This document shows positions 1 to 31,900 of a stretch of 64,000 bases of DNA, one piece after another. This DNA is from Eledone cirrhosa. Taxonomy: Eukaryota. How positions within the stretch are numbered: position 1 is the first letter of the stretch; each line of letters begins with the position of its first letter. Under the pieces are notes generated by a model. The model ran no database searches, had not been told where the DNA came from, and saw only the letters and a program-made list of their open reading frames with translations. The stretch is from assembly GCA_964016885.1 (NCBI GenBank), contig OZ024759.1:26846001-26910000 (forward strand). Direction: 5' to 3'. Made by a program: the position numbers and the translations under genes.

Positions 1-3000
1 GTAATGTTATCGACATATCTGCCCTTGGGACTAATAATTGTCATGTAATGTTATGGACATCTCTGCCCCTGTGGCTAATAATTCTGTCATGTAATGTTAT
101 GGACATCTCTGCCCCTGTGGCTAATAATTCTGTCATGTAATGTTATGGACATCTCTGCCCCTGTGGTTAATAATTCTGAGAGAGATAAAACAAGTGAGGG
201 ATTAGAGTGTTGAAACAAGAGAGAGAGAGGAAGAGAGAGAGAGAGCGAGATGAAATGAGACAGGGTGAGCGAGATGAAACGCGACAGTGAGAGAAGCGAT
301 ATGAAACGAGAGAGTGAGAGCGAGATGAAACGAGAGAGAGAGCGAGATGAAACGAGACAGAGAGAGCGAGATGTAATGAGAGAGAGAGAGAGAGAGCGGG
401 ATGGAACGAGACAGAGAGGAAACGAGAGAGAGAGGAAACGAGAGTGAGGAAACGAGAGTAGAGAGCGAGATGAAACAGGAGAGAGAGAGCGAGATGAAAC
501 GAGAGGGAGAGAGAGATGAAACGAGGGAGATAGAGATGAAACGAGAGAGAGGAAGAGAGAGATGGAACGAGAGAGAGGAAGACAGAGATGAAACGAGAGA
601 GAGAGAGAGATGAAACGAGAGAGAGAGAGCGCGAGATGAAACGAGAGAAAGAGAGCGCGAGATGAAACGACAGAGAGAGAGAGAGATGAAAGGAGGGAGA
701 TAGAGATGAAACGAGAGAGAGGAAGAGAGAGATGGAACGAGCGAGAGGAAGAGAGAGATGGAACGAGAGAGAGGAAGACAGAGATGAAACGAGAGAGAGC
801 GAGATGAAACGAGAGAGAGAGAGAGAGCGAGATGAAACGAGAGAGAGGAAGAGAGAGAGCGCCAGATGAAACTCTGTCATGTAATGTTATGGACATATCT
901 GCCCTTGGGGCTAATAATTGTCATGTAATGTTATGGACATCTCTGCCCCTGTGGCTAATAATTCTGTCATGTAATGTTATGGACATCTCTGCCCCTGTGG
1001 CTAATAATTCTTTCATGTAATGTTATGGACATCTCGGCCCCTGTGGCTAATAATTCTGACATGTAATGTTATGGACATCTCTGCCCCTGTGGCTAATAAT
1101 TCTGACATGTAATGTTATGGACATCTCTGCCCCTGTGGCTAATAATTCTGTCATGTAATGTTATGGACATCTCTGCCCCTGTGGCTAATAATTCTGCCAT
1201 GTAATGTTATGGACATCTCTGCCCCTGTGGCTAATAATTCTGCCATGTAATGTTATGGACATCTCTGCCCCTGTGGCTAATAATTCTGACATGTAATGTT
1301 ATGGACATCTCTGCCCCTGTGGCTAATAATTCTGAGAGAGATGAAACAAGTGAGGGATTAGAGAGAGATAAAACAAGTGAGGGATTAGAGTGTTGAAACA
1401 AGAGAGAGAGAGGAAGAGAGATAGAGAGCGAGATGAAATGAGACAGGGAGAGCGAGATGAAACACGACAGTGAGAGAAGCGAGATGAAACGAGAGAGTGA
1501 GAGCGAGATGAAACGAGAGAGAGAGAGAGCGAGATGAAACGAGACAGAGAGAGCGAGATGTAATGAGAGAGAGAGAGAGCGGGATGGAACGAGACAGAGA
1601 GGAAACGAGAGAGAGGAAACGAGAGTAGAGAGCGAGATGAAACGAGAGGGAGAGAGAGATGAAACGAGAGAGCGAGAGAGAGATGAAACGAGGGAGATAG
1701 AGATGAAACGAGAGAGAGAAAGAGAGAGATGGAACGAGAGAGAGGAAGAAAGAGATGAAACGAGAGAGAGAGAGAGCGAGATGAAACGAGAGAGAGAGAG
1801 CGCGAGATGAAACGAGAGAGAGAGAGCGCGAGATGAAACGAGAGAGAGAGAGCGCGAGATGAAACGATAGAGAGAGAGACAGATAAAAGGAGGGAGATAG
1901 AGATGAAACGAGAGAGAGGAAGATAGAGATGGAACGAGAGAGAGCAAGAGAGAGATGGAACGAGAGAGAGGAAGACAGAGATGAAACGAGAGAGAGAGAG
2001 AGCGAGATGAAACTCTGTCATGTAATGTTATGGACATATCTGCCCTTGGGGCTAATAATTGTCATGTAATGTTATGGACATCTCTGCCCTGTGGCTAATA
2101 ATTCTGACATGTAATGTTATGGACATCTCTGCCCCTGTGGCTAATAATTCTAAGAGAGATGAAACAAGTGAGGGATTAGAGAGAGATAAAAAAGTGAGGG
2201 ATTAGAGTGTTGAAACAAGAGAGAGAGAGGAAGAGAGAGAGAGAGAGCGAGATGAAATGAGACAGGGAGAGCGAGATGAAACGAGACAGAGAGGAAACGA
2301 GAGAGAGGAGACGAGAGTAGAGAGCGAGATGAAACAGAAGAGAGAGAGCGAGATGAAACGAGAGGGAGAGAGAGATGAAACGAGTGAGCGAGAGAGAGAT
2401 GAAACGAGGGAGATAGAGATGAAACGAGAGAGAGGAAGAGAGAGATGGAACGAGAGAGAGGAAGAGAGAGAGGAAGACAGAGATGAAACGAGAGAGAGAG
2501 AGAGCGAGATGAAATGAGAGAGAGAGTGCGCGAGATGAAACGAGAGAGAGAGAGAGCGCGAGATGAAACGACAGAGAGAGAGACAGATGAAAGGAGGGAG
2601 ATAAAGATGAAACGAGAGAGAGGAAGAGAGAGATGAAACGAGAGAGAGAGCGAGAGGAAACGAGAGAGAGAGAGCGCAAGATGAAACGAGAGAGAGAGAG
2701 CGCGAGATGAAACTCTGTCATGTAATGTTATGGACATATCTGCCTCTGTGGCTAATAATTGTCATGTAATGTTATGGTCATCTCTGCCCCTGTGGCTAAT
2801 AATTCTGTCATGTAATGTTATGGACATCTCTGCCCCTGTGGTTAATAATTCTGACATGTAATGTTATGGTCATCTCTGCGCCTGTGGCTAATAATTCTGA
2901 GAGAGATGAAACAAGTGAGGGATTAGAGTGTTGAAACAAGAGAGAGAGAGCGAGATGAAATGAGAGAGTGTGAGCGAGATGAAACGAGACAGGGAGAGCG

Positions 3001-6000
3001 AGATGAAACGAGAGAGTGAGAGCGAGATGAAACGAGAGAGTGAGAGCGAGATGAAATGAGAGAGAGAGAGCGAGATGAAATGAGAGAGAGAGAGCGAGAT
3101 GAAATGAGAGAGAGAGAGCGAGATGAAACGAGACAGAGAGAGAACGAGATGAAACGAGAGAGTGAGAGCGAGATGAAACGAGAGAGAGAGAGCGAGATGA
3201 AACGGGAGGGAGAGAGAGATGAAACGAGAGAGAGTGGAAACGAGAGTAGAGAGCGAGATGAAACAGGAGAGAGAGAGAGCGAGATGAAACAGGAGAGAGA
3301 GAGCGAGATGAAACGAGAGGGAGAGAGAGATGAAACGAGAGAGCGAGAGAGAGATGAAACGAGGGAGATATAGATGAAACGAGAGAGAGGAAGAGAGAGA
3401 TGGAACTAGAGAGAGGAAGACAGAGATGGAACGAGAGAGAGGAAGACAGAGATGAAACGAGAGAGAGAGAGAGCGAGATGAAACAGGAGAGAGAGAGCGA
3501 GATGAAACGAGAGGGAGAGAGAGATGAAACGAGAGAGCGAGAGAGAGATGAAACAAGGGAGATAGAGATGAAACGAGAGAGAGGAAGAGAGAGATGGAAC
3601 GAGAGAGAGGAAGAGAGAGATGGAACGAGAGAGAGGAAGACAGAGATGAAACGAGAGAGCGAGATGAAACGAGAGAGAGAGAGAGCGAGAAGAAACGAGA
3701 GAGAGGAAGAGAGAGAGCGCCAGATGAAACTCTGTCATGTAATGTTATGGACATATCTGCCCTTGGGGCTAATAACTGTCATGTAATGTTATGGACATCT
3801 CTGCCCCTGTGGCTAATAACTCTGACATGTAATGTTATGGACATCTCTGCCCCTGTGGCTAATAATTCTGAGAGAGATGAAACAAGTGAGGGATTAGAGA
3901 GAGATAAAACAAGTGAGGGATTAGAGTGTTGAAACAAGAGAGAGAGAGAGCGAGATGAAACGCGATAGTGAGAGAAGCGAGATGAAACGAGAGAGTGAGA
4001 GCGAGATGAAACGAGAGAGAGAGAGAGCGAGATGAAACGAGACAGAGAGAGCGAGATGTAATGAGAGAGAGAGAGCGAGCGGGATGGAACGAGACAGAGA
4101 GGAAACGAGAGTAGAGAGCGAGATGAAACGAGAGGGAGAGAGAGATGAAACGAGAGAGCGAGAGAGAGATGAAACGAGGGAGATAGAGATGAAATGAGAG
4201 AGAGGAAGAGAGAGATGGAACGAGAGAGAGGAAGACAGAGATGAAACGAGAGAGAGAGAGAGCGAGATGAAACGAGACAGAGAGAGCGCGAGATGAAACG
4301 AGAGAGAGAGAGCACGAGATGAAACGACAGAGAGAGAGACAGATGAAAGGAGGGAGATAGAGATAAAACGAGAGAGAGGATGAGAGAGATGGAACGAGAG
4401 AGAGGAAGAGAGAGATGGAACGAGAGAGAGGAAGACAGAGATGAAACGAGAGAGAGAGAGAGCAAGATGAAACGAGAGAGAGAGAGCGCGAGATGAAACT
4501 CTATCATGTAATGTTATTGATATATCTGCCCCTGTGGCTAATAATTGTCATGTAATGTTATGGTCATCTCTGCCCCTGTGGCTAATAATTCTGTCATGTA
4601 ATGTTATGGACGTCTCCGCCCCTGTGGCTAATAACTCTGACATGTAATGTTATGGACATCTCTGCCCTGTGGCTAATAATTCTGACATGTAATGTTATGG
4701 ACATCTCTGCCCCTGTGGCTAATAATTCTGAGAGAGATGAAACAAGTGAGGGATTAGAGAGAGATAAAACAAGTGAGGGATTAGAGTGTTGAAACAGGAG
4801 AGAGAGAGCGAGATGAAACGCGATAGTGAGAGAGGCGAGATGAAACGAGAGAGTGAGAGCGAGATGAAACGGGACAGAGAGAGCGAGATGTAATGAGAGA
4901 GAGAGAGAGCGGGATGGAACGAGACAGAGAGGAACGAGAGTAGAGAGCGAGATGAAACGAGAGGGAGAGAGAGATGAAACGAGAGAGCGAGAGAGAGATG
5001 AAACGAGGGAGATAGAGATGAAACGAGAGAGAGGAAGAGAGAGATGGAACGAGAGAGAGGAAGACAGAGATGAAACGAGAGAGAGAGAGAGCGAGATGAA
5101 ACGAGAGAGAGAGAGCGCAAGATGAAACGAGAGAGAGAGAGCGCGAGATGAAACGACAGAGAGAGAGACAGATGAAAGGAGGGAGATAGAGATGAAACGA
5201 GGGAGAGGAAGAGAGAGATGGAACGAGAGAGAGGAAGACAGAGATGAAACGAGAGAGAGAGCGAGATGAAACGAGAGAGAGGAAGAGAGAGAGCGCGAGA
5301 TGAAACTCTCTCATGTAATGTTATCGACATATCTGCCCTTGGGGCTAATAATTGTCATGTAATGTTATGGACATCTCTGCCCCTATGGCTAATAATTCTA
5401 TCATGTAATGTTATGGACATCTCTGCCCCTGTGGCTAATAATTCTGTCATGTAATGTTATGGACATCTCTGCCCCTGTGGCTAATAATTCTGCCATGTAA
5501 TGTTATGGACATCTCTGCCCCTGTGGCTAATAATTCTGCCATGTAATGTTATGGACATCTCTGCCCTGTGGCTAATAATTCTGACATGTAATGTTATGGA
5601 CATCTCTGCCCCTGTGGCTAATAATTCTGAGAGAGATGAACCAAGTGAGGGATTAGAGAGAGATAAAACAAGTGAGGGATTAGAGTGTTGAAACAAGAGA
5701 GAGAGAGGAAGAGAGAGAGAGAGCGAGATGAAACAAGAGAGTGAGAGAAGCGAGATGAAACGAGAGAGTGAGAGCAAGATCAAACGAGAAAGAGAGAGAG
5801 CGAGATGAAACGAGACAGAGAGGAAACGAGAGAGAGAGGAAATGAGAGAGAGGAAACGAGAGTAGAGAGCGAGATGAAACAGGAGAGAGAGAGCGAGAAG
5901 AAACGAGCGGGAGAGAGAGATGAAACGAGAGAGCGAGAGAGAGATGAAACGAGGGAGATAGAGATGAAACGAGAGAGAGGAAGAGAGAGATGGAACGAGA

Positions 6001-7803
6001 GAGAGGAAGACAGAGATGAAACGAGAGAGAGAGAGAGATAAAACGAGACAGAGAGAGCGCGAGATGAAACGAGAGAGAGAGAGCGCGAGATGAAACGACA
6101 GAGAGAGAGACAGATGAAAGGAGGGAGATAGAGATGAAACGAGAGAGAGGATGAGAGAGATGGAACGAGAGAGAGGAAGAGAGAGATGGAACGAGAGAGA
6201 GGAAGACAGAGATGAAACGAGAGAGAGAGCAAGATGAAACGAGAGAGAGAGAGCGCAAGATGAAACGAGAGAGAGAGAGCGCGAGATGAAACTCTGTCAT
6301 GTAATGTTATTGACATATCTGTCCCTGTGGCTAATAATTGTCATGTAATGTTATGGTCATCTCTGCCCCTGTGGCTAATAATTCTGTCATGTAATGTTAT
6401 GGACATCTCTGCCCTTGTGGCTAATAATTCTGAGATATATTAAACAAGTGAGGGATTAGAGTGTTGAAACAAGAGAGAGAGAGCGAGAAAAAATGAGAGA
6501 GTGAGAGCGGGATGAAACGAGAGAGGGAGAGCGAGATGAAACGAGAGAGAGAGAGCTAGATGAAATGAGAGAGAGAGAGCGAGATGAAACGGGAGGGAGA
6601 GAGAGATGAAACGAGAGAGAGAGGAAACGAGAGTAGAGAGCGAGATGAAACAAGAGAGAGAGCGAGATGAAACAGGAGAGAGAGAGCGAGATGAAACGAG
6701 AGGGAGAGAGAGATGAAACGAGAGAGCGAGAGAGAGATGAAACAAAGGAGATAGAGATGAAACGAGAGAGAGGAAGAGAGAGATGGAACGAGAGAGAGGA
6801 AGAGAGAGATGGCACGAGAGAGAGGAAGACAGAGATGAAACGAGAGAGAGAGAGCGAGATGAAACGAGAGAGAGAGAGCGCGACATGAAACGAGAGAGAG
6901 AGAGCGTTAGATGAAACGACAGAGAGCGAGACAGATGAAAGAAGGGAGATAGAGATGAAACGGGAGAGAGGAAGAGAGAGATGGAACGAGAGAGAGGAAG
7001 AGAGAGATGGAACGAGAGAGAGGAAGACAGGGATGAAACGAGAGAGAGAGAGAGCGAGATGAAACGAGAGAGAGAGAGCGCAAGATGAAACGAGAGAGAG
7101 AGCGCGGGAGATGAAACGACAGAGAGAGAGACAGATGAAAGGAGGGAGATAGAGATGAAACGAGAGAGAGGATGAGAGAGATGGAACGAGAGAGAGGAAG
7201 AGTGAGATGGAACGAGAGAGAGAGAGAGCAAGATGAAACGAGAGAGAGAGAGAGAGAGAGAGCGCAAGATGAAACGAGAGAGAGAGAGCGCGAGATGAAA
7301 CGACAGAGAGAGAGACAGATGAAAGAACGGAGATAGAGATGAAACGAGAGAGAGGAGGAAAGAGATGGAACGAGAGAGAGGAAGAGAGAGATGGAACGAG
7401 AGAGAGGAAGACAGAGATGAAACGAGAGAGAGAGAGAGCGAGATGAAACGAGAGAGAGGAAGACAGAGATGAAACGAGAGAGAGGGAGAGCGAGATGAAA
7501 CGAGAGAGAGAGCGCGCAAGATGAAACTCTGTCATGTAATGTTATTGACATATCTGCCCCTGTGGCTAATAATTGTCATGTAATGTTATGGTCATCTCTG
7601 CCCCTGTGGCTAATAATTCTGTCATGTAATGTTATGGACATCTCTGCCCCTGTGGCTAATAATTCTGACATGTAATGTTATGGACATCTCTGCCCTTGTG
7701 GCTAATAAATCTGACATGTAATGTTATGGAAATCTCTGCCCCTGTGGCTAATAATTCTGTCATGTAATGTTATGGAAATCTCTGCCCCTGTGGCTAATAA
7801 ATC
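1..7803 (+). repeat. Higher-order satellite, left arm: 46-bp monomer clusters alternating with 8 GA-rich blocks
   Basis: Monomer ctgtcatgtaatgttatggacatctctgcccctgtggctaataatt (period 46, e.g. 61 to 107). GA blocks at about 178-873, 1334-2014, 2151-2714, 2899-3731, 3870-4500, 4730-5307, 5629-6293 and 6432-7528, built of gatgaaac(ga)n. Confidence 0.97.
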
Positions 7804-7804
7804 A

Positions 7805-10800
7805 GAATTATTAGCCACAGGGGCAGAGATGTCCATAACATTACATGTCAGAATTATTAGCCACAGGGGCAGAGATGTCCATAACATTACATGACAGATT
7901 TATTAGCCACAGGGGCAGAGATGTCCATAACATTACATGCCAGAATTATTAGCCACAGGGGCAGAGATGTCCATAACATTACATGACAGATTTATTAGCC
8001 ACAGGGGCAGAGATGTCCATAACATTACATGTCAGATTTATTAGCCACAGGGGCAGAGATGTCCATAACATTACATGTCAAAATTATTAGCCACAGGGGC
8101 AGAGATGTCCATAACATTACATGACAGATTTATTAGCCACAGGGGCAGAGATGTCCATAACATTACATGACAGAATTATTAGCCACAGGGGCAGAGATGT
8201 CCATAACATTACATGACAGAATTATTAGCCACAGGGGCAGAGATTTCCATAACATTACATGACAATTATTAGCCCCAAGGGCAGATATGTCCATAACATT
8301 ACATGACAGACTTTCATCTCGCGCTCTCTCTCTCTCGTTTCATCTCACGCTCTCTCTCTTCCTCTCTCTCGTTTCATCTTGCTCTCTCTCTCTCTCGTTT
8401 CATCTCGCGTTCTCTCTCTTCCTCTCTCTCGTTTCATCTCGCTCTCTCTCTCGTTTCATCTCTGTCTTCCTCTCTCTCGTTCCATCTCTCTCTTCCTCTC
8501 TCTCGTTCCATCTCTCTCTTCCTCTCTCTCGTTTCATCTCTCTCTCTCGTTTCATCTGTCTCTCTCTCTGTCGTTTCATCTCCCTCTATCTCTCTCTCGC
8601 TCTCTCGTTTCATCTCTCTCTCCCTCTCGTTTCATCTCGCTCTCTCTCTCCTGTTTCATCTCGCTCTCTCTCTCCTGTTTCATCTCGCTCTCTACTCTCG
8701 TTTCCTCTCTCTCGTATCCTCTCTCTCGTTACCTCTCTCTCTCGTTTCCTCTCTCTCTCGTTTCCTCTAGCTCTCACTCTCTCGTTTCATCTAGCTCTCT
8801 CTCTCTCATTTCATCTCGCTCTCTCTCTCTCGTTTCATCTCGCTCTAATCTGTCTCGTTTCATTTCGCTCTCTCTCTCTCTCGTTTCATTTCGCTCTCTC
8901 TGTCTCGTTTCATCTCGCTCTCTCTCTCTCATTTCAACTCGCTCTCTCTCTCTCATTTCATCTCGCTCTCTCTCTCTCGTTTCATATCGCTCTCACTCTC
9001 TCATTTCATCTCGCTCTCTCTCTCTCGTTTGATCTCGCTCTCACTCTCTCTTCCTCTCTCTCTCTTGTTTCAACACTCTAATCCCTCACTTGTTTCATCT
9101 CTCTCTTATCCCTCACTTGTTTCATCTCTCTCAGAATTATTAGCCACAGGGGCAGAGATATCCATAACATTACATGTCAGAATTATTAGCCACAGGGGCA
9201 GAGATGTCCATAACATTACATAACAGATTTATTAGCCACAGGGGCGGAGATGTCCATAACATTACATGACGAATTTATTAGCCACAGGGGCAGAGATGTC
9301 CATAACATTACATGACAGAATTATTAGCCACAGAGGCAGAGATGTCCATAACATTACATGACAGAATTATTTGCCACAGGGGCAGAGATGTACATAACAT
9401 TACATGACAATTATTAGCCCCAAGGGCAGATATGTCCATAACATTACATGACAATTATTAGCCCCAAGGGCAGATATGTCCATAACATTACATGACAGAC
9501 TTTCATCTCGCGCTCTCTCTCTTCCTCTCTCTCGTTTCATCTCGCTCTCTCTCTCTCGTTTCATCTCGCTCTCTTTCTCTCTCGTTTCATCTCGCGCTCT
9601 CTCTCTTCCTCTCTCTCGTTTCATCTCGCTCTCTCTCTCGTTTCATATCTGTCTTCCTCTCTTTCGTTCCATCTCTCTATTCCTCTCTCTCTCGTTTCAT
9701 CTAGCTATCACTCTCTCGTTTCATCTCCCTCTATCTCTCTCTCGCTCTCTCGTTTCATCTCTCCCTCCCTCTCATTTCATCTCGCTCTCTCTCTCCGGTT
9801 TCATCTCGCTCTCTCTCTCTCCTGTTTCATCTTGCTCTCTACTCTCGTTTCCTCTCTCTCGTTTCCTCTCTCTCGTTTCCTCTATCTCTCGTTTCCTCTC
9901 TCTCTCGTTTCATCTAGCTCTCACTCTCTCGTTTCATCTCGCTCTCTCTGACTCGTTCCATCTCGCTCTCACTCTCTCGTTTCATCTCGCTCTCTCTCTC
10001 TCATTTCATCTCGCTCTCTCTCTCTCATTTCATCTCGATCTCTCTGTCTCGTTTCATCCCGCTCTCTCTGTCTCGTTTCATCTCGCTCTCTCTCTCTCAT
10101 TTCATCTCGCTCTCTCTCTCTCATTTCATCTCGCTCTCTCTCTCTCTCTCGTTTCATCTCACTCTCAATCTCTCATTTCATCTCGCTCTCTCTCTCTCAT
10201 TTCATCTCGCGCTCTCTCTCTTCCTCTCTCTCGTTTCATCTCGCGCTCTCTCTCTTCCTCTCTCTCGTTTCATCTCGCTCTCTCTCTCTCGTTTCATCTT
10301 GCGCTCTCTCTCTTCCTCTCTCTCGTTTCATCTCGCGCTCTCTCTCTTCCTCTCTCTCGTTTCATCTTGCTCTCTCCCTCTCTCGTTTCATCTCGCGTTC
10401 TCTCTCTTCCTCTCTCTCGTTTCATCTCTGTCTTCCTCTCTCTCGTTCCATCTCTCTCTTCCTCTCTCTCGTTCCATCTCTCTCTTCCTCTCTCTCGTTT
10501 CATCTCTCTCTCTCGTTTCATCTCTATCTCCCTCGTTTCATCTGTCTCTCTCTCTGTCGTTTCATCTCCCTCTATCTCTCTCTCGCTCTCTCGTTTCATC
10601 TCTCTCTCCCTCTCGTTTCATCTCACTCTCTCTCTCCTGTTTCATCTCGCTCTCTCTCTCCTGTTTCATCTCGCTCTCTACTCTCGTTTCCTCTCTCTCG
10701 TATCCTCTCTCTCGTTTCCTCTCTCTCTCGTTTCCTCTCTCTCTCGTTTCCTCTAGCTCTCACTCTCTCGTTTCATCTCGCTCTCTCTCTCTCATTTCAT

Positions 10801-13800
10801 CTCGCTCTCTCTCTCTCGTTTCATATCGCTCTAATCTGTCTCGTTTCATTTCGCTCTCTCTCTCTCTCTCTCTCGTTTCATTTCGCTCTCTCTGTCTCGT
10901 TTCATCTCGCTCTCTCTCTCTCATTTCAACTCGCTCTCTCTCTCTCATTTCATCTCGCTCTCTCTCTCTCGTTTCATATCGCTCTCACTCTCTCATTTCA
11001 TCTCGCTCTCTCTCTCTCGTTTGATCTCGCTCTCACTCTCTCTTCCTCTCTCTCTCTTGTTTCAACACTCTAATCCCTCACTTGTTTCATCTCTCTCTTA
11101 TCCCTCACTTGTTTCATCTCTCTCAGAATTATTAGCCACAGGGGCAGAGATATCCATAACATTACATGTCAGAATTATTAGCCACAGGGGCAGAGATGTC
11201 CATAACATTACATGACAGATTTATTAGCCACAGGGGCGGAGATGTCCATAACATTACATGACGAATTTATTAGCCACAGGGGCAGAGATGTCCATAACAT
11301 TACATGACAGAATTATTAGCCACAGGGGCAGAGATGTCCATAACATTACATGACAGAATTATTTGCCACAGGGGCAGAGATGTACATAACATTACATGAC
11401 AATTATTAGCCCCAAGGGCAGATATGTCCATAACATTACATGACAATTATTAGCCCCAAGGGCAGATATGTCCATAACATTACATGACAGACTTTCATCT
11501 CGCGCTCTCTCTCTTCCTCTCTCTCGTTTCATCTCGCTCTCTCTCTCTCGTTTCATCTCGCTCTCTCTCTCTCTCGTTTCATCTCGCGCTCTCTCTCTTC
11601 CTCTCTCTCGTTTCATCTCGCTCTCTCTCTCTCTCGTTTCATATCTCTCTTCCTCTCTCTCGTTCCATCTCTCTATTCCTCTCTCTCTCGTTTCATCTAG
11701 CTATCACTCTCTCGTTTCATCTCCCTCTATCTCTCTCTCGCTCTCACGTTTCATCTCTCCCTCCCTCTCATTTCATCTCGCTCTCTCTCTCCGGTTTCAT
11801 CTCGCTCTCTCTCTCTCCTGTTTCATCTTGCTCTCTACTCTCGTTTCCTCTCTCTTGTTTCCTCTCTCTCGTTTCCTCTCTCTCTCGTTTCCTCTCTCTC
11901 TCGTTTCATCTAGCTCTCACTCTCTCGTTTCATCTCGCTCTCTCTGACTCGTTCCATCTCGCTCTCACTCTCTCGTTTCATCTCGCTCTCTCTCTCTCAT
12001 TTCATCTCGCTCTCTCTCATTTCATCTCGATCTCTCTGTCTCGTTTCATCCCGCTCTCTCTGTCTCGTTTCATCTCGCTCTCTCTCTCTCATTTCATCTC
12101 GCTCTCTCTCTCTCTCATTTCATCTCGCTCTCTCTCTCTCTCTCGTTTCATCTCACTCTCAATCTCTCATTTCATCTCGCTCTCTCTCTCTCATTTCATC
12201 TCGCGCTCTCTCTCTTCCTCTCTCTCGTTTCATCTCGCGCTCTCTCTCTTCCTCTCTCTCGTTTCATCTCGCTCTCTCTCTCTCGTTTCATCTTGCGCTC
12301 TCTCTCTTCCTCTCTCTCGTTTCATCTCGCTCTCTCTCTCTCATTTCATCTCGATCTCTCTGTCTCGTTTCATCCCGCTCTCTCTGTCTCGTTTCATCTC
12401 GCTCTCTCTCTCTCATTTCATCTCGCTCTCTCTCTCTCATTTCATCTCGCGCTCTCTCTCTTCCTCTCTCTCGTTTCATCTCGCGCTCTCTCTCTTCCTC
12501 TCTCTCGTTTCATCTCGCTCTCTCTCTCTCTCTCGTTTCATCTTGCGCTCTCTCTCTTCCTCTCTCTCGTTTCATCTCGATCTCTCTCTGTCTCGTTTCA
12601 TCTCTGTCTTCCTCTCGCTCGTTCCATCTCTCTCTTCCTCTCTGTCGTTCCATCTCTCTCTTCCTCTCTCTCGTTTCATCTCTCTCTCTCGTTTCATCTC
12701 TGTCTTCCTCTCTCTCGTTCCATCTCCCTCTTCCTCTCTCTCGTTCCATCTCTCTCTTCCTCTCTCTCGTTTCATCTCTCTCTCTCGTTTCATCTCTATC
12801 TCCCGCGTTTCTACTGTCTCTCTCTCTGTCGTTTCATCTCCCTCTATCTCTCTCTCGCTCTCTCGTTTCATCTCTCTCTCCCTCTCGTTTCATCTCGCTC
12901 TCTCTCTCCTGTTTCATCTCGCTCTCTCTCTCCTGTTTCATCTCGCTCTCTACTCTCGTTTCCTCTCTCTCGTTTCCTCTCTCTCGTTTCCTCTCTCTCT
13001 CGTTTCATCTAGCTCTCCCACTCTCGTTTCATCTCGCTCTCTCTGTCTCGTTCCATCTCGCTCTCACTCTCTCGTTTCATCTCGCTCTCTCTCTCTCATT
13101 TCATCTCGCTCTCTCTCTCTCATTTCATCTCGCTCGCTCTCTCTCTCTCGTTTCATCTCGCTCTCTCTGTCTCGTTTCATCTCGCTCTCGCTCTCTCTGT
13201 CTCGTTTCATCCCGCTCTCTCTCTCTCATTTCATCTCGCTCTCTCTCTCTCATTTCATCTCGCTCTCTCTCTCTCTCTCGTTTCATCTCGCTCTCACTCT
13301 CTCATTTCATCTCGCTCTCTCTCGTTTGATTTCGCTCTCTCTCTTCCTCTCTCTCTCTCTTGTTTCAACACTCTAATCCCTCACTTGTTTCATCTCTCTC
13401 AGAATTATTAGCCACAGGGGCAGAGATGTCCATAACATTACATGTCAGAATTATTAGCCACAGGGGCAGAGATGTCCATAACATTACATGACAGATTTAT
13501 TAGCCACAGGGGCAGAGATGTCCATAACATTACATGACGAATTTATTAGCCACAGGGGCAGAGATGTCCATAACATTACATGTCAGAATTATTAGCTACA
13601 GGGGCAGAGATGTCCATAACATTACATGTCAGAATTATTAGCCACAGGGGCAGAGATGTCCATATCATTACATGACAGATTTATTAGCCACAGGGGCAGA
13701 GATGTCCGTAACATTAAATGACAGATTTATTAGCCACAGGGGCAGAGATTCCATAAGATTACATGTCAGAATTATTAGCCACAGGGGCAGAGATTTCCAT

Positions 13801-14799
13801 AACATTACATGACAGAATTATTAGCCACAGGGGCAGAGATGTCCATAACATTACATGACAGAATTATTAGCCACAGGGGCAGAGATGTCCATAACATTAC
13901 ATGACAATTATTAGCCCCAGGGGCAGATATGTCCATGACAGAGTTTCATCTCTCGCTCTCTCTCTTCCTCTCTCTCGTTTCATCTCGCTCTCTCTCTCGT
14001 TTCATCTCGCTCTCTCTCTCGTTTCATCTCGCTCTCTCTCTCTCTCTTTTCACCTCTGTCTTCTTCTCTCTCGTTTCATCTCTCTCTTCCTCTCTCTCGT
14101 TCTATCTCTCTCTTCCTCTCTCTCGTTTCATCTCTCTCTCTCGTTTCATCTCTATATCCCTCGTTTCATCTGTCTCTCTCTCTGTCGTTTCATTTCCCTC
14201 TATCTCTCTCTCGCTCTCTCGTTTCATCTCTCTCTCCCTCTCGTTTCATCTCGCTCTCTCTCTCCTGTTTCATCTCGCTCTCTCTCTCCTGTTTCATCTC
14301 GCTCTCTACTCACGTTTCCTCTCTCTCGTTTCCTCTCTTTCTCGTTTCATCTCTCTCTCGTTTCATCTCTCTATGTCTCATTTCATCTCGCTCTCTCTCT
14401 CTCTCATTTCATCTCGTTCTCTCTCTTTCTCATTTCATCTCGCTCTCACTCTCTCGTTTCATCTCGCTCTCTCACTCTCGTTTCATCTCGCACTCTCTCT
14501 CTCGTTTCATCTCTCTCTCTCTCTCTCTCTCATTTCATCTCGCTCTCTGTCTCGTGTCATCTCGCTCTCTCTGTCTCTCGTTTCATCTCGCTCTCACTCT
14601 CTCGTTTCATCTCACTCTAACTCTCTCATTTCATCTCGCTCTCCCTGTCTCGTTTCATCTCGCTCCCACTCTCTCATTTCATCTCACTCTCTTTCTCTCA
14701 TTTCATCTCGCTCTCTCGCTCTTGTTTCAACACTCTAATCCCTCACTTGTTTCATCTCTCTCTAATCCCTCACTTGTTTCATCTCTCTCTTGTTTCAAT

Positions 14800-14860
<61 letters not shown>

Positions 14861-15205
14861 ATCCCCTCTCTCTTTCTCTCCCCTCTCTCTGTTGTTTCAT
14901 CCCTCACCCTCTTGTTTCATCCCCTTCTCTCCCTCTCTCTCTCTTCCCCTCTATCTCTATTCCTCTCTCTCATCCCCTCTCTCTCTCTTCCTCTCTCTCT
15001 CTCTCCCCTCACCCTCTTGTTTCAACTCTCTCCTCGTTTCAACTCTCTCCTCGTTTCAACTCTCTCCTCGTTTCAACTCTCTCCTCGTTTCAACTCTCTC
15101 TCTCTCCTCTCGTTTCAACTCTCTCTCTCTCCTCGTGTTTCAACCATCTCCTCTCTTGTTTCAACTCTCTCACCTCTCGTTTCAACTCTCTCTCTCTGTG
15201 TCTCC
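7805..15205 (-). repeat. Higher-order satellite, right arm (reverse orientation), 4 CT-rich blocks
   Basis: Reverse-complement monomer aattattagccacaggggcagagatgtccataacattacatgacag. CT blocks at about 8310-9133, 9499-11125, 11491-13401 and 13940-15205. Confidence 0.97.
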
Positions 15206-15567: not shown

Positions 15568-16123
15568 TTCAAAGAGAAACCACCATCATAGAGAAACCAC
15601 CGTCCTACCTGAAATATTATGTTATCATATTAAATATTTCTTATACTGTCATGTTTTTTCTTTAAAACGATTGCATTTCAATAAAGTGAAGAAAACTATT
15701 ATATACTGTTGTTATATCATTATACTTTAGTTTTAACTTATTATTTCTATGTGTATAAATATAATGTATGTAAGTGTGTTTGAAAATATATAATAATAAT
15801 ATGCATGTTTGAAGCAGGGTTCAACTGAAATATCTACACCGGTAACTTAATTAGTGTTACACCTTAGGCATAAACTATTTGGCATTCTTTGAAGGAGGTA
15901 CTAGGTTTTTCACTGTCTTAAATGGAGTATACACGCGCACACAATGCATATATATAAATTGTTTTTCTCTGTACAAAGAGATTGACATCATTTCTTAAAT
16001 CATTATTTAGGGTTTTACAACAAAACATATTGTATGTGTAATTATACAAATTGAATTTAAGTATTTATTTTAAAATTTTACATACACTTTAGTAGTATAT
16101 ATATATATATATATATTCATTTG

Positions 16124-17014
16124 TGATGCCATGCATTGTATTGTACACTTCGACATATGAATTACGTTCATGCAACACTTCTCTTATCATAGCCATTTTT
16201 TGTGGTGAGCAGTCATTATTTGTTGGTACTAGGGCAGTGGATTGGCAGTATCGGTAGAGCGCCAGACACCATGCTTTACAGCATAGGGTTATGGCCATTT
16301 ACGTTCTGGGTTCAAATCCCTCCAAGGTTGACTTGGTTTTCATCCTTATGAGGTCGATAGAATAAAGTACCAGTAATTGCTGGCCTTGTGCCAGAAACAA
16401 TTATTTGGTTGTACTTCCAATCTGTGCTACACACCTTCGTTCCCATCAATAATATATAACTGGCCATATTGTGGTGTATTTTCTGCAGGTTACAGAGATG
16501 GGGGTGTAGTGATATGTTTGACCCTGAATATGAAAGCTATACGGGCCTCTGCCGGGTGGTAACACCAAATGAAGTGAAATAAATGTAGTTTTAATTGCAG
16601 ATGTTTCTGTGAAATCAACTGCTTCCTGGCCTCTTTCAAAGAGATTTCTCAGTCTCTCAGGGTATATTTGCAATGGTGGCAACACAACCTTTCCTTTATT
16701 ACAACAGTTACAATTTTCATTTCTAAATTTCAAAGCTCCACAGTGATCACACGAAACATTCATATCACTAATATGAAATTCTTCTACATTTCCATTAATA
16801 TTAATTGTTGGCCAATTTCTCTTACAACGCTCATTATCCATTCTTCTCTGTCTGAATGTTTTCCATTCTGTTGTTTATTATGTAATTAAATAGCTCTGTA
16901 CAATACATAGAGCATTCTTCTTTTCTTTACCTTTTCTATGGAAATACAAGAACAAACATGTAAATATATATATATATGTATATACATAAACAAGACTGTT
17001 ATTGCTCCAACCAG
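16124..17014 (-). pseudogene. Helitron Rep/helicase N-terminal fragment plus upstream flank, extra copy 1 (copy at 50510-51400)
   Basis: CDHCGALKFRNENCNCCNKGKVVLPPL..P..LRNLF, GRGPYSFHIQGQTYH and VLHERNSYVEVY match Helitron N-terminal motifs (CxHCxALxF..CCxxGKVxLP, GPYxFRIxGQxYH, NPY). Near-identical to 27972-28936. Confidence 0.88.
16232..16406 (+). mobile_element. tRNA-derived SINE inserted in the Helitron fragment (copy at 50618-50792)
   Basis: A-box tggcagtatcgg, B-box ggttcaaatccc, core ttcatccttatgaggtcgatagaataaagtaccagt. Flanked by an imperfect 16-bp direct repeat, attatttgttggtact (16215) and attatttggttgtact (16400). Confidence 0.85.
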
Positions 17015-18373: not shown

Positions 18374-18454
18374 ATGTATATATATTTATATCTAGAGATA
18401 AGAAGAAAACTGAAAGAAAGAAAAGAAAAAAAATGAGACCTTATATGTAACCCA

Positions 18455-18986
18455 TGTTACAACTCAATATATATATATTTGGGTTGTAACATATTCCCGC
18501 CGGTGAAGTAAAAATTTTAATAGAAAAACGGCGGGAATATATGTTACAACCCAATCTATATATATTTGAGTTGTAACATATATTCCCGCCGTTGAAATAA
18601 AAATGTTAATAGAAAAACGGCGGGAATATATGTTACAATCCAATCTACATATATTTGGGTTGTAACATATATTCCCGCCGTTGAAATAAAAATTTTAATA
18701 GAAAAACGGCGGGAATATATGTTACAACCCAAATATATGTAGATTGGGTTGTAACATATATTCCCGCCGTTTTTCTATTAAAATGTTTATTTCAACGGCG
18801 GGAATATATGTTACAACCCAAATATATATAGTTTCGTTGTAACATATATTCCCGCCGTTTTTCTATTAAAATTTTTATTTCAACGGCGGGAATATATGTT
18901 ACAACCCAAATATATATAGATTGGGTTGTAACATATATTCCCGCCGTTTTTCTATTAAAATTTTTATTTCAACGGCGGGAATATAT
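18455..18986. repeat. 89-bp double-hairpin satellite, ~6 units, inverted in the middle
   Basis: tgttacaa at 18542, 18631 and 18720 (period 89). The motif aacggcgggaatatatgttacaaccca alternates with its reverse complement; 3 forward loops then 3 reverse loops. Confidence 0.95.
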
Positions 18987-19007
18987 ACCCTGAGAGACTG
19001 AGAAATC

Positions 19008-19363
19008 TCTTTCAAAGAGATTTCTCAGTCTCTCAGGGTATATTTGCCATGGTGGCAACACAACCTTTCCTTTAGTACAACAGTTACAATTTTCATTTCT
19101 AAATTTCAAAGCTCCACAGTGATCACACGAAACATTCATATCACTAATATGAAATTCTTCTACATTTCCATTAATATTAATTGTTGGCCAATTTCTCTTA
19201 CGACGCTCATTATCCATTCTTCTCAGTCTGAATGTTTTCCATTCTAAGTCTATTTGCATGGAATAATTATATTCTGTTGTTTATTATGTAATTAAATAGC
19301 TCTGTACAATACATAGAGCATTCTTCTTTTCTTTACCTTTTCTATGGAAATACAAGAACAAAC

Positions 19364-26375: not shown

Positions 26376-28727
26376 TTACATCTGTCTGTGAACTCTTGAA
26401 AAAGCAACATACAATTGTCCAGGGTTAAATACTTGCTCAGGGAGGAACAGACCCACTTTATCATGTATTTGACCATGGTTCTTGTTGATTGTCATGGCAT
26501 ATGACAGTCTTAATGGAAACTGGGGTCTTTCCAAAGTAAAAAGGATGTTGGCACCACTGGGGGCTAACTTCAGTCTTGGGATCAAAACACACCTGCCCAT
26601 CAAAGGACCATAGATATGAGAAGCTTTGATAAAATGTTTATGCAGTTCTACTACTTCTAATCTTGTGCCATTACATAATCTGTTCTGGATTGAAATATTC
26701 CATAGAAGCATTAGTATTGATGCTGCTTTTAATTGGAGTTTGTGAGGCGGCATCCCAGAAGGTGTAAGCAAGTTCATTTAGCTTGAACCAGGCAGCAAGG
26801 GTCCCTGCATTTCTACCACAACCTGAGCATTGCCTCTTTGAAAGTAAACTGTGTTTGTTCTCCAGGTGTGTGGCTAGGCTGTATAATGTATGTGATGTAC
26901 CATGAAGCTTAAATTCGGAGAGACACGACACTGCTTCTGGCTGAGACACATACCTGCAACAAAGATAGGTTCTTATTTCATCATGGTTGTGTTGGTTCTG
27001 AGCCTCATTAGGTAATGCATTATTCGTTACTTCTATAGATGTACAATCATGCCCCATGTAACATATTTAAAGAGGTACTTGACACTTTTTACAGAAGCGC
27101 AAACTTCAACATTAATATGTGCACAATATTTCTTAAGCAAAAAGGCATTAAATGGCACAACATTCCTGTTATCTACTGAATGTCATCCAATTTACACTGC
27201 AGTTCCTGTCTTGCACCTCCTGTACTCTGGGTATCCATTTAGGTTCAATAATGTTTCCCTTCTGTAGGTTTTTGGATAGTTCTTTTGGAAAAATCCATTT
27301 TGTATAAATGGGGGAAAAGGGTTTCCAGAACCACATGGCCCGTGGATCATAAACTTTTAAACCTGCTCATATAGTACTTGATCATCTTCCAATGCAGGTA
27401 TTTCTGCTGACACGATTCTGTCAATGTCTTCTCTGTTTCTTATCTTGTCTTCATTTCTTAAGGCTCAGTGTTATCATCTGTTTAGATAATTCATTAAACC
27501 ATTATACTCATCCACTCACAATTGGGCTTGATTGTTCCTCAAATATTGAAGCCTGCATCCCTCTACTTTCATATATGCTTCCACTAAATACTGCTAAAAT
27601 AATTTACCTGCCCTATATATCGCACTAAATCCTCCTCTATATGCTATACTGTATATGTAATACTCCTGCATTGTCAGTCTATTGCAAACACAGGTCCTGC
27701 ATTCCTCTCCATGTCACTATGCCACCAAAATTCACCATTATGGGTCGGTCATGAGGTCCAAGTGGCATGAATTATGTGATATTTTCTGAGGAGGATGGTC
27801 TTTAGGAAAGATGATAATATCTCTTTGTACAGGTGGTCTGCCCTCAATCCCCCACAAAACAACAGCTATCATTACTAGTTGGTAAATTATAGCAGCTCAT
27901 ATCTGATCCTCTTCTAAATCTTAATTCACAGTTCTGTACACGACAATGTTCTCTTCTTGCACTTTGCTGTTTGATGCCATGCATTGTATTGTACAATTCA
28001 CATATGGATTACATTCATGCAACACCTCTCTTATCATAGCCATTTTTTGTGGTGAGCACTCATTATTTGTTGGTACTAGGGCGGTGGATTGGCAGTATCG
28101 GTAGAGCGTCAGACACCATGCTTTGCAGCATAGGGTTATGGCCCTTTACGTTCTGGGTTCAAATCCCTCCAAGGTTGACTTTGTTTTCATCCTTATGAGG
28201 TCGATAGAATAAAGTACCAGTAATTGCTGGCCTTGTGCCAGAAACAATTATTTGGTCGTACTTCCAATCTGTGCTACACACCTTCGTTCCCATCAATAAT
28301 ATATAACTGGCCATATTGTGGTGTATTTTCTGCAGGTTACAGAGGTGGGGGTGTAGTGATATGTTTGACCGTGAATATGAAAGCTATACGGGCCTCTGCC
28401 GGGTGGTAACACCAAATGAAGTGAAATAAATGTAGTTTTAATTGCAGACGTTTCTGTGAAATCAACTGCTTCCTGGCCTCTTTCAAAGAGATTTCTCAGT
28501 CTCTCGGGGTATATTTGCAATGGTGGCAACACAGCCTTTCCTTTATTACAACAGTTATTTTCATTTCTAAATTTCAAAGCTTCACAGTGATCACACGAAA
28601 CATTCATATCACTAATATGAAATTCTTCTAGATTTCCATTAATATTAATTGTTGGCCAATTTCTCTTATGACGCTCATTATCCATTCTTCTCTGTCTGAA
28701 TGTTTTCCATTCTAAGTCTATTTGCAT
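26376..28727 (-). pseudogene. Degenerate, internally deleted Helitron Rep/Pif1-helicase gene
   Basis: Collinear motifs on the minus strand across frameshifts and stops: CDHC..CCNKGK, GPYSFHIHGQTYH, YNLPT, RLTMQEYY, GKLF*QYLVEAYMKVE, IDRIVSAEIP, MIHGPCG, GYPEYRR, VDNRNVVPFN..AHINVEVCASVKSVKYLFKY (Rep tyrosine motif), DEIRTYLCCRYVS, AWFKLN. Then the Pif1 C-terminus PSGMPPHKLQLK..LCNGTRL..QFPLRLSYAMTINK..GQLYVAFSRV. Confidence 0.95.
28079..28253 (+). mobile_element. tRNA-derived SINE inserted antisense in the Helitron (copy at 61431-61605)
   Basis: Same element at the same Helitron position as 16232-16406, with A/B boxes and an imperfect 16-bp flanking direct repeat. Confidence 0.85.
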
Positions 28728-28895: not shown

Positions 28896-28936
28896 GTGTG
28901 TATATACATAAACAAGACTGTTATTACTCCAACCAG

Positions 28937-31900
28937 ATAAAACTCTGTCATGTAATGTTATCGACATATCTGCCCTTGGGGCTAATAATTGTCATGTAAT
29001 GTTATGGACATCTCTGCCCCTGTGGCTAATAATTCTGTCATGTAATGTTATGGACATCTCTGCCCCTGTGGCTAATAATTCTGTCATGTAATGTTATGGA
29101 CATCTCTGCCCCTGTGGTTAATAATTCTGAGAGAGATAAAACAAGTGAGGGATTAGAGTGTTGAAACAAGAGAGAGAGAGGAAGAGAGAGAGAGAGCGAG
29201 ATGAAATGAGACAGGGAGAGCGAGATGAAACGCGAGAGTGAGAGAAGCGATATGAAACGAGAGAGTGAGAGCGAGATGAAACGAGAGAGAGAGAGAGCGA
29301 GATGAAACGAGACAGAGAGAGCGAGATGTAATGAGAGAGAGAGAGAGAGCGGGATGGAACGAGACAGAGAGGAAACGAGAGAGAGAGGAAACGAGAGTGA
29401 GGAAACGAGAGTAGAGAGCGAGATGAAACAGGAGAGAGAGAGCGAGATGAAACGAGAGGGAGAGAGAGATGAAACGAGGGAGATAGAGATGAAACGAGAG
29501 AGAGGAAGAGAGAGATGGAACGAGAGAGAGGAAGACAGAGATGAAACGAGAGAGAGAGAGAGATGAAACGAGAGAGAGAGAGCGCGAGATGAAACGAGAG
29601 AGAGAGAGCGCGAGATGAAACGACAGAGAGAGAGAGAGATGAAAGGAGGGAGATAGAGATGAAACGAGAGAGAGGAAGAGAGAGATGGAACGAGCGAGAG
29701 GAAGAGAGAGATGGAACGAGAGAGAGGAAGACAGAGATGAAACGAGAGAGAGCGAGATGAAACGAGAGAGAGAGAGAGAGCGAGATGAAACGAGAGAGAG
29801 GAAGAGAGAGAGCGCCAGATGAAACTCTGTCATGTAATGTTATGGACATATCTGCCCTTGGGGCTAATAATTGTCATGTAATGTTATGGACATCTCTGCC
29901 CCTGTGGCTAATAATTCTTTCATGTAATGTTATGGACATCTCGGCCCCTGTGGCTAATAATTCTGACATGTAATGTTATGGACATATATGCCCCTGTGGC
30001 TAATAATTCTGACATGTAATGTTATGGACATCTCTGCCCCTGTGGCTAATAATTCTGTCATGTAATGTTATGGACATCTCTGCCCCTGTGGCTAATAATT
30101 CTGCCATGTAATGTTATGGACATCTCTGCCCCTGTGGCTAATAATTCTGCCATGTAATGTTATGGACATCTCTGCCCCTGTGGCTAATAATTCTGACATG
30201 TAATGTTATGGACATCTCTGCCCTGTGGCTAATAATTCTGACATGTAATGTTATGGACATCTCTGCCCCTGTGGCTAATAATTCTGAGAGAGATGAAACA
30301 AGTGAGGGATTAGAGAGAGATAAAACAAGTGAGGGATTAGAGTGTTGAAACAAGAGAGAGAGAGGAAGAGAGAGAGAGAGCGAGATGAAATGAGACAGGG
30401 AGAGCGAGATGAAACACGAGAGTGAGTGAAGCGAGATGAAACGAGAGAGTGAGAGCGAGATGAAACGAGAGAGAGAGAGAGCGAGATGAAACGAGACAGA
30501 GAGAGCGAGATGTAATGAGAGAGAGAGAGAGCGGGATGGAACGAGACAGAGAGGAAACGAGAGAGAGGAAACGAGAGTAGAGAGCGAGATGAAACGAGAG
30601 GGAGAGAGAGATGAAACGAGAGAGCGAGAGAGAGATGAAACGAGGGAGATAGAGATGAAACGAGAGAGAGAAAGAGAGAGATGGAACGAGAGAGAGGAAG
30701 AAAGAGATGAAACGAGAGAGAGAGAGAGCGAGATGAAACGAGAGAGAGAGAGCGCGAGATGAAACGAGAGAGAGAGAGCGCGAGATGAAACGAGAGAGAG
30801 AGAGCGCGAGATGAAACGAGAGAGAGAGAGCGCGAGATGAAACGACAGAGAGAGAGACAGATAAAAGGAGGGAGATAGAGATGAAACGAGAGAGAGGAAG
30901 ATAGAGATGGAACGAGAGAGAGCAAGAGAGAGATGGAACGAGAGAGAGGAAGACAGAGATGAAACGAGAGAGAGAGAGAGCGAGATGAAACTCTGTCATG
31001 TAATGTTATGGACATATCTGCCCTTGGGGCTAATAATTGTCATGTAATGTTATGGACATCTCTGCCCCTGTGGCTAATAATTCTGTCATGTAATGTTATG
31101 GACATCTCTGCCCCTGTGGCTAATAATTTTGTCATGTAATGTTATGGACATCTCTGCCCCTGTGGCTAATAATTCTGACATGTAATGTTATGGACATCTC
31201 TGCCCTGTGGCTAATAATTCTGACATGTAATGTTATGGACATCTCTGCCCCTGTGGCTAATAATTCTAAGAGAGATGAAACAAGTGAGGGATTAGAGAGA
31301 GATAAAAAAGTGAGGGATTAGAGTGTTGAAACAAGAGAGAGAGAGGAAGAGAGAGAGAGAGAGCGAGATGAAATGAGACAGGGAGAGCGAGATGAAACGA
31401 GACAGAGAGGAAACGAGAGAGAGGAGACGAGAGTAGAGAGCGAGATGAAACAGAAGAGAGAGAGCGAGATGAAACGAGAGGGAGAGAGAGATGAAACGAG
31501 TGAGCGAGAGAGAGAGGAAACGAGGGAGATAGAGATGAAACGAGAGAGAGGAAGAGAGAGATGGAACGAGAGAGAGGAAGAGAGAGAGGAAGACAGAGAT
31601 GAAACGAGAGAGAGAGAGAGCGAGATGAAATGAGAGAGAGAGAGCGCGAGATGAAACGAGAGAGAGAGAGAGCGCGAGATGAAACGACAGAGAGAGAGAC
31701 AGATGAAAGGAGGGAGATAAAGATGAAACGAGAGAGAGAGCGAGAGGAAACGAGAGAGAGAGAGCGCAAGATGAAACGAGAGAGAGAGAGCGCGAGATGA
31801 AACTCTGTCATGTAATGTTATGGACATATCTGCCTCTGTGGCTAATAATTGTCATGTAATGTTATGGTCATCTCTGCCCCTGTGGCTAATAATTCTGTCA

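What the first reader, a model, noticed from the sequence alone, without database searches (positions are those of the whole stretch)
7700..7900. Sharp palindromic strand-switch at the centre of the satellite
At 7804 (and 36917) the array turns head-to-head: tggctaataaatc-a-gaattattagcca, with a 1-nt spacer and one mismatch. Several monomers on each side can pair into a stem of hundreds of bp, and the purine skew flips from GA to CT over about 7.5 kb per side. Long palindromes with almost no spacer are normally unstable, yet this centre is retained identically in both units. The aataaatc variant typical of the right arm appears in the left arm only in the last ~100 bp, which suggests the junction came from fold-back of right-arm-type monomers.
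Basis: partly seen in the sequence, partly recalled or inferred. Interest (0 to 1): 0.75.

Follow-up and report, generated by a model that had tools for sequence, protein, structure and literature searches.

The report
Head-to-head joint in animal satellite DNA
A repetitive DNA array in an animal genome flips direction at one sharp joint; the joint most likely formed once during break repair and was then copied passively inside a 30-kb tandem duplication, an arrangement already described in beetle and human satellites.

Summary
The junction is real. At 7804 and 36917 a compound satellite (46-bp monomer blocks alternating with GA-rich spacers) turns head-to-head, with a formal 1-nt spacer, a predicted 7-nt loop and a ~225-bp stem at ~95%. 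But the arms are not mirror copies: they pair no better than random monomers (2.0-2.2 vs 2.25 mismatches per 46 bp) and belong to two diverged sub-lineages. The two junctions are one event, copied inside a 29-33-kb tandem unit whose copies differ by only 0.1-1.2%; identity spans just -366/+43 bp, so no special retention is needed. The right arm stops exactly at a natural block end where a purine tract begins, with 2-bp overlap; the last ~95 bp of the left arm carry right-arm variants. Best reading: fold-back priming followed by a homology switch into another array; end-joining plus later conversion is not excluded. The unit also holds a second strand-switched array (89-bp) and a demonstrable snap-back palindrome (6-bp seed grown to 30 bp) amid dead Helitron pieces. 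Closest precedent: Tribolium freemani macro-dyad satellites. New member of a known kind; reads were not available.

The parts
7791..7817 (.). Strand-switch junction, unit 1; centre 7804; 2-bp overlap (TC/GA) at 7802-7803
36904..36930 (.). Same junction, unit 2; centre 36917
7528..7803 (+). Left central block, 6 monomers of 46 bp; first four left-type (match block 6293-6432), last ~95 bp carry right-arm variants; lineage switch between 7697 and 7709
7805..8310 (-). Right central block, 11 monomers (10 in unit 2); its last 138 nt are identical to the natural end of the block ending at 13399
1..7803 (+). Left arm, unit 1: nine 46-mer blocks with GA-rich spacers of 0.56-1.1 kb
7805..15197 (-). Right arm, unit 1: four 46-mer blocks, spacers 0.8-1.9 kb, fading into degenerate (TC)n at the outer end
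28937..36916 (+). Left arm, unit 2 (8.0 kb)
36918..49583 (-). Right arm, unit 2 (12.7 kb, seven 46-mer blocks)
28929..28943 (+). Outer breakpoint of the left arm: satellite joined, 7 bp before a block start, to DNA upstream of a Helitron ORF with a 4-bp overlap (CCAG); repeated at 62265; uninterrupted sibling copies at 17007, 19423, 51393, 54372
28937..62272 (.). One complete tandem unit (33.3 kb); the preceding unit is about 29.0 kb and a third starts at 62273
18454..18986 (.). Second strand-switched array: 89-bp monomer of two hairpins, 3+3 monomers, centre ~18737; unit 2 copy 52842-53887 has 5+7, centre 53302, 333-bp stem
18983..19043 (.). Perfect palindrome, 30-bp arms, grown from a 6-bp-arm seed that is unextended in four sibling copies; unit 2 copy centred 53932
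26382..28712 (-). Decayed Helitron RepHel remnant (frameshifts, internal deletions, an insertion near 28080-28240); C-terminal piece matches Pfam Pif1_2B_dom
16116..16868 (-). Second copy of the Helitron N-terminal segment; a third at 19005-19244 is cut at the snap-back palindrome

Best explanation
A single past repair event, then passive copying. (1, inferred) A fork stalled or broke where a right-type 46-mer block meets the purine-rich spacer. (2, inferred) The free 3' end ending in TTCTGA folded back and primed through 2 bp on an upstream aataaatc monomer of its own strand, copying about 95 bp of right-type monomers. (3, inferred) Synthesis or later repair switched by 46-mer homology into a different, left-type stretch of the same satellite, whose far end is joined to Helitron DNA by a 4-bp overlap. 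(4, shown) The whole 29-33-kb segment was then duplicated in tandem at least twice, carrying the junction along. (5, inferred) It persists because it is young in its present copies, imperfect (about 5% mismatch, many equivalent registers), and because a strand switch in a tandem array cannot be removed by local deletion, only moved. It has no demonstrated function.
For: Single origin and copying: units differ by 0.12-1.2% substitutions in seven segments compared; P(27-bp core identical) = 0.81 at the observed event rate, and the 410-bp identical run is third of 71. Break at a block end: the sequence running into the unit-1 junction matches the natural block end at 13399 for 138 nt; 10 of the 12 longest matches are natural ends although only 22 of 64 candidate sites are; the next 300 nt there are 85% purine. 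Right-type tract on the left: two markers, each 2 of 6 central vs 0 of 39 other left monomers (Fisher p = 0.015 for the first; monomers not independent); a left-only marker at 7696 bounds the switch. In the register of the nearest upstream aataaatc monomer the A-T-A pattern of that site matches at three of three monomers (read; 4 and 3 mismatches per 100 bp). Fold-back is shown to operate in this unit: 6-bp arms in 4 of 6 sibling copies, 30-bp arms in 2 of 6. Literature: Pol theta extends stem-loops from two terminal base pairs (PMC11292364, abstract); fold-back insertions of about 5-34 bp at yeast breaks (PMC11724301, abstract); inverted duplications end at repeats by secondary homology switches (PMC10622511, abstract and section 11; PMC4689423 section 9).
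Against: No exact template: best inverted match of 7700-7803 has 3 mismatches in 104, barely better than ordinary monomers at 4-5, so 3-4 later changes must be assumed. All six registers pair about equally. A 2-bp overlap occurs in 296 of 2116 random phase pairs (14%) and is not diagnostic. The A-T-A match has about a 50% chance among registers starting with A (2 of 4, read). In unit 2 the ggaaatc variant next to the centre removes an in-register mismatch and looks derived, which shows that arm-to-arm conversion could equally explain right-type variants on the left. CAG lies at both ends of the left arm, as an insertion would leave. 94%-identical, 320-bp inverted Alu arms with a 12-bp spacer are used as a fragile substrate in yeast (PMC3855049, passages), so imperfection alone may not make this centre stable. 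Fork stalling at (GA)n tracts is recalled, not tested.
Confidence: 0.56

Rival explanations
1. The left arm is a separate piece of the satellite that was inserted or inverted and end-joined at short overlaps; the right-type variants in its last ~95 bp came later by arm-to-arm conversion in a hairpin or cruciform. Copying with the tandem unit is as in the best explanation.
For: Arms are distinct sub-lineages: spacer 20-mer Jaccard 0.28 within arms vs 0.18 between; longest exact left/right match 120-124 bp; global left vs inverted right 7% substitutions and 171-181 gaps vs 0.6% and 14 for left vs left. CAG at both ends of the left arm. One apparent conversion event in unit 2.
Against: In-register pairing at the centre (2.0-2.2 mismatches per 46 bp) is not better than random left/right pairs (2.25), as repeated conversion would make it; the mismatch at offset 3 is itself a right-type variant with no in-register donor. 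A 3-bp match is weak, and CCAG is explained by overlap with a left-type spacer end.
Confidence: 0.25
2. The dyad centre is kept by selection as a structural element (loop, protein-binding or centromere-like site), as hypothesised for Tribolium freemani macro-dyads.
For: Same anatomy as TfSat01 arrays (10.1101/2024.12.02.626372, passages and section 18); two different satellites in this unit each have exactly one switch while copy number changed (11 vs 10; 6 vs 12 monomers).
Against: Conservation does not exceed background; only two copies, sharing recent descent; the 89-mer centre differs between units. The T. freemani function is itself a hypothesis.
Confidence: 0.07
3. Helitron RepHel activity (in trans) nicked this region and hairpin-primed or rolling replication produced the inversions and the 30-kb tandem units.
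For: Three Helitron pieces per unit; the left-arm breakpoint, the snap-back palindrome and the 89-mer array all abut Helitron-derived or adjacent DNA.
Against: The remnant is decayed; no hairpin plus CTRR-T 3' end was found in 15200-28940 on either strand (perfect arms >=6 bp); the 7804 junction itself is 8 kb from any Helitron piece.
Confidence: 0.05
4. Artefact of fold-back reads or mis-assembly.
For: Fold-back artefacts are about 0.55-0.6% of ONT genomic reads (PMC12870357, passages). Raw reads could not be examined. The window begins about 15 bp inside a left arm.
Against: A fold-back read gives a mirror copy; here the arms differ in variants, block numbers and spacers. The junction occurs twice with differently diverged surroundings. 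Three left-arm starts differ (4, 0 and 1 private substitutions in 852 columns; second blocks of 10, 10 and 14 monomers).
Confidence: 0.05
5. The dyad is a Foldback-type DNA transposon with long modular inverted repeats.
For: Two long inverted arms built of tandem repeats, of variable length, as in Tetris (PMC4079207, passages).
Against: Outer ends are not mirror termini; no 8-10-bp target duplication (one shared 6-mer that abuts neither end); the right flank is not the continuation of the empty left site.
Confidence: 0.02

Closest known systems
Tribolium freemani TfSat01/TfSat03 macro-dyad arrays (10.1101/2024.12.02.626372; passages and section 18 read; supplements not seen)
   Same: Arrays of about 10-20 kb made of two inverted subarrays of unequal length; truncated monomers abut with no foreign DNA; junction sequences nearly identical between arrays; a second satellite in the intervening DNA also switches strand.
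   Different: There: 1793 two-subarray arrays, six junction types, on several chromosomes, centromeric, loops of 9-27 nt. Here: two copies of one junction in a tandem unit with about 14 kb of transposon-rich spacer, compound 46-mer/GA satellite, predicted loop 7 nt, location unknown.
Strand switches in human HSat3, beta and alpha satellites (10.1101/2021.07.12.452052 and 10.64898/2026.07.22.740206; passages)
   Same: Orientation switches inside satellite arrays, persistent in genomes; over 200 breakpoints reported, read as by-products of array expansion.
   Different: Different repeat families and scale; junction sequences were not seen in the passages read.
Fold-back inverted duplication with secondary repeat-mediated switch (PMC10622511; ODIRA, PMC4689423)
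   Same: Inversion junction at a short overlap, followed by a switch at repeats that leaves only part of a mirror arm.
   Different: Those have unique-sequence mirror arms; here any mirror is at most ~95 bp and already eroded.
Snap-back SD-MMEJ / Pol theta stem-loop extension (PMC5728401 passages; PMC11292364 abstract; PMC11724301 abstract)
   Same: The 18983-19043 palindrome fits closely: 6-bp primer repeat, 24-nt templated extension, exit into new DNA.
   Different: For the 7804 junction the fit is inferred only; the enzyme is unknown.

Membership tests
Macro-dyad satellite array (TfSat01 type) | Two inversely oriented subarrays, several kb each, of unequal length | tested here: met
Macro-dyad satellite array (TfSat01 type) | Truncated monomers abut with no foreign sequence | tested here: met
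Macro-dyad satellite array (TfSat01 type) | Junction conserved among arrays beyond shared descent | tested here: inconclusive
   2 of 2 identical, but expected from unit divergence
Macro-dyad satellite array (TfSat01 type) | Present on non-homologous chromosomes, centromeric | not testable with these tools
   only one window; no eukaryotic genome collection
Fold-back inverted duplication | Short overlap or inverted repeat at the junction | tested here: inconclusive
   2 bp present; 14% of random joins have >=2 bp
Fold-back inverted duplication | Arms are mirror copies | tested here: not met
   pairing equals random monomers; 7% substitutions and 171-181 gaps arm-wide
Fold-back inverted duplication | Short copied tract ending in a homology switch | tested here: inconclusive
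   right-type tract 7709-7803 and switch at 7697-7709, but no exact template
Foldback DNA transposon | Mirror-image termini | tested here: not met
Foldback DNA transposon | 8-10-bp target-site duplication and continuous empty site | tested here: not met
Foldback DNA transposon | Tandem repeats inside long inverted arms | tested here: met
Helitron tandem array | RepHel coding sequence in the unit | tested here: met
   decayed remnant only
Helitron tandem array | 3' hairpin plus CTRR terminus in the unit | tested here: not met
   0 sites under the strict scan of 15200-28940
Helitron tandem array | 5' TC terminus marking the unit boundary | not tested
   array ends lie outside the window
Long-read fold-back artefact | Second half retraces the same molecule | tested here: not met
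Long-read fold-back artefact | Absent from independent libraries | not testable with these tools
   no reads available

The most novel reading that the evidence does not exclude
Each 30-kb unit carries three independent near-zero-spacer strand switches (46-mer/GA satellite, 89-bp hairpin satellite, 30-bp perfect palindrome) among Helitron pieces. They may be footprints of one recurring germ-line fold-back process, possibly Helitron-nicked, that manufactures macro-dyad satellites; this locus would then show the birth stages of the dyads seen fully amplified in Tribolium, and the dyad centres might be what drives or licenses amplification of the unit.
Probability: 0.1. Interest if true: 0.7.

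Novelty: new member of a known kind. Interest (0 to 1): 0.3.

Why it matters
As it stands it is a clean, base-resolved example of how a satellite strand switch can be dissected: block-end breakpoint, lineage switch, and a polarised snap-back nearby. How macro-dyads arise is left open in the Tribolium paper (section 18), and this locus offers a small tractable case.

Tried and rejected
Rfam at gathering thresholds: 0 matches in 64 kb. ARAGORN: 0 genes. Pfam: 1 of 4 translated pieces matched; two further ORFs of the first try were not rescanned. Search for an exact inverted template of the last ~100 left-arm bases: none. Test whether one register pairs best: none does. Strict Helitron 3'-end scan: none. 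Target-site and terminus test for a Foldback element: failed. A 17-nt monomer stretch was found in 0 papers; searches for Helitron/satellite/Octopus and cephalopod satellite DNA listed nothing that describes this repeat in titles or abstract openings; this is weak evidence, as sequences are rarely printed in main text, and supplements were not searched. In the event-rate estimate one indel caused by my own split point at 3001 was dropped. In the per-column tally 44-bp start monomers and frameshifted monomers were left out (84 left and 80 right remained); the monomer baseline used only full 46-bp monomers of unit 1 (21 left, 28 right). The bacterial, phage and plasmid collections were not searched, being irrelevant to an animal satellite. 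Other genomic copies and raw reads stayed unchecked.
Full report
SETTING. The window is AT-rich eukaryotic DNA made of a tandem unit of about 29.0 and 33.3 kb, with a third unit starting at 62273. Each unit has a compound satellite (46-bp monomer blocks of 3-14 copies alternating with GA-rich spacers) and about 14 kb of transposon-rich spacer. The spacer holds a decayed Helitron RepHel on the minus strand (26382-28712) and two further copies of its N-terminal part. The best named relative is an Octopus bimaculoides protein at 63%, below an unnamed one at 77%; with a recalled resemblance of a dispersed repeat at 15395, 16237 and 28083 to octopus SINEs this suggests a cephalopod, which is not established. 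Rfam and ARAGORN found nothing.

THE OBSERVATION. The letters, coordinates, single mismatch and skew flip are as reported. The two centres are among the three strongest palindromes in the window, the strongest being an unrelated 89-bp array. The stem is 224 bp ungapped with 95 and 96 of the first 100 pairs matched, and the 7530-8310 strand folds at -326 kcal/mol against -53 for a single-orientation block. The minimum-energy fold is out of register, because any monomer can pair with any inverted monomer; all registers give 8-13 mismatches per 230 bp where both blocks are long enough. With only 2 bp between centre and mismatch the predicted loop is 7 nt. The right-arm variant claim holds: 0 of 39, 0 of 42 and 0 of 18 non-central left monomers, 2 of 6 central ones, 12 of 39 and 18 of 62 on the right; a second marker shows the same pattern. 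Arm lengths are >=7.8/7.4 kb in unit 1 but 8.0/12.7 kb in unit 2.

NOT A MIRROR. In-register mismatches at the centre (2.0 and 2.2 per 46 bp) equal those of random left/right monomer pairs (2.25; 21 x 28 monomers). Arm-wide, left against inverted right gives 7% substitutions and 171-181 gaps, left against left 0.6% and 14 gaps. Spacers are more alike within arms (Jaccard 0.28, n = 28 and 6 pairs) than between (0.18, n = 32), and the longest exact left/right match is 120-124 bp. The arms are two sub-lineages of one satellite. This argues against a read-level fold-back, which retraces the same molecule (definition in PMC12870357, passages), and against a recent whole-arm inverted duplication.

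NOT SPECIALLY RETAINED. The units differ by 0.12-1.2% substitutions in seven segments. At the satellite's event rate (0.0078 per bp) a 27-bp core is identical with probability 0.81; the 410-bp identical run has probability 0.04 if chosen beforehand but is only third among 71 runs. Immediately right of the centre the units differ by a monomer and two substitutions. The two junctions are therefore one event seen twice. But in a tandem array hairpin-induced lesions can heal by losing whole monomers, and a local deletion across the centre creates another centre (inference). By contrast, an inverted non-satellite copy at 22435-23019 is missing from unit 2, lost with 21423-23107 between two direct copies.

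HOW IT AROSE. Read in array direction, the unit-1 right arm runs into the junction through 138 nt identical to the natural end of the block at 13399; 10 of the 12 longest such matches are natural block ends, against 22 of 64 candidate sites; what normally follows is 85% purine. In unit 2 this signature is disturbed by the monomer loss. The join has a 2-bp overlap, which alone is unremarkable (14% of 2116 random phase pairs; spacer <=1 in 6.5%). On the left, the central block starts like the left-type block at 6293, carries a left-only variant at 7696 and right-type variants from 7709. The left arm's outer end lies 7 bp before a block start and joins Helitron-upstream DNA with a 4-bp overlap found in left-type spacer ends; four sibling copies are uninterrupted. 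I infer fold-back priming at the block end, a copied tract of about 95 bp, and a homology switch into left-type array. Against this, no exact template survives (3 mismatches in 104 at best), and one change in unit 2 looks like arm-to-arm conversion, so end-joining of a separate piece plus conversion remains a serious rival.

FOLD-BACK IS SHOWN NEARBY. At 19013 and 53932 a perfect palindrome has 30-bp arms, whereas the four sibling copies of the same Helitron DNA (1-3% diverged) have only the 6-bp-arm seed. This is the snap-back signature described for SD-MMEJ (PMC5728401, passages), Pol theta stem-loop extension (PMC11292364, abstract) and yeast fold-back insertions (PMC11724301, abstract). 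It abuts an 89-bp double-hairpin array that also switches strand once (3+3 monomers in unit 1, 5+7 in unit 2; about 96% arm identity); there the switch lies inside the monomer's own hairpin and its centre differs between units.

COMPARISON. The closest system is the macro-dyad organisation of T. freemani TfSat01: arrays with median lengths of 9-16 kb, 71.8% with two inverted subarrays, truncated monomers abutting without foreign DNA, junctions 95-99.9% alike, loops of 9-27 nt, function hypothetical (10.1101/2024.12.02.626372, passages and section 18; its supplements, which hold the junction alignments, could not be seen). Strand switches number in the hundreds in some human satellites (passages). 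Fold-back followed by repeat-mediated switches is documented in yeast (PMC10622511 abstract and section 11; PMC4689423 abstract and section 9). It works like those, but fails the mirror-arm test for a plain inverted duplication, the terminus and target-site tests for a Foldback transposon (PMC4079207, passages), and the 3'-end test for a Helitron array. I found no description of this particular repeat, which is weak evidence.

VERDICT. Real, singly originated, passively duplicated strand switch; new member of a known kind; interest 0.3. The boldest open reading, that the three switches per unit record a recurring process that builds macro-dyad satellites, has probability about 0.1 and would merit 0.7. 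Raw reads and other genomic copies were not available and stay unchecked.

Noticed in passing
window 18454-18986 and 52842-53887: 89-bp monomer made of two hairpins; the array switches strand once in each unit (3+3 and 5+7 monomers) and in unit 2 forms the strongest palindrome in the window (333-bp stem). It sits at a duplication junction. Origin unknown.
   Followed up: partly
window 18983-19043 and 53902-53962: Perfect 30-bp-arm palindrome grown from a 6-bp seed that is unextended at 16637, 28484, 51023 and 61836: a polarised snap-back event.
   Followed up: yes
window 21307-23477: MITE-like segment in direct, inverted and direct copies (91-93% alike) in unit 1; unit 2 has one hybrid copy and lacks about 1.7 kb. 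The MITE label is from terminal inverted repeats seen, not from a library.
   Followed up: partly
window 28934-28936 and 36916-36918: CAG lies at both ends of the left arm; a 3-bp target duplication or chance.
   Followed up: partly
46-mer, last column of the tally: The most variable monomer position is the middle base of the interrupted palindrome TG-N-CA; all four bases occur.
   Followed up: no
window 25161-25803 and 58513-59155: 55-bp minisatellite, about 12 copies, downstream of the Helitron helicase piece; nearly unchanged between units.
   Followed up: no
window 15395-15519, 16237-16377, 28083-28224: Dispersed ~140-170-bp repeat, one copy interrupting the Helitron frame; recalled resemblance to octopus SINEs, untested.
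   Followed up: no
window 37379-47810: Unit 2 right arm has five near-identical 8-monomer blocks against two in unit 1, with exact internal matches up to 1588 bp: very recent higher-order expansion on one side only.
   Followed up: partly
window 1-20: The window starts about 15 bp inside a left arm; if this is a contig start the assembly breaks at the repeat edge.
   Followed up: no
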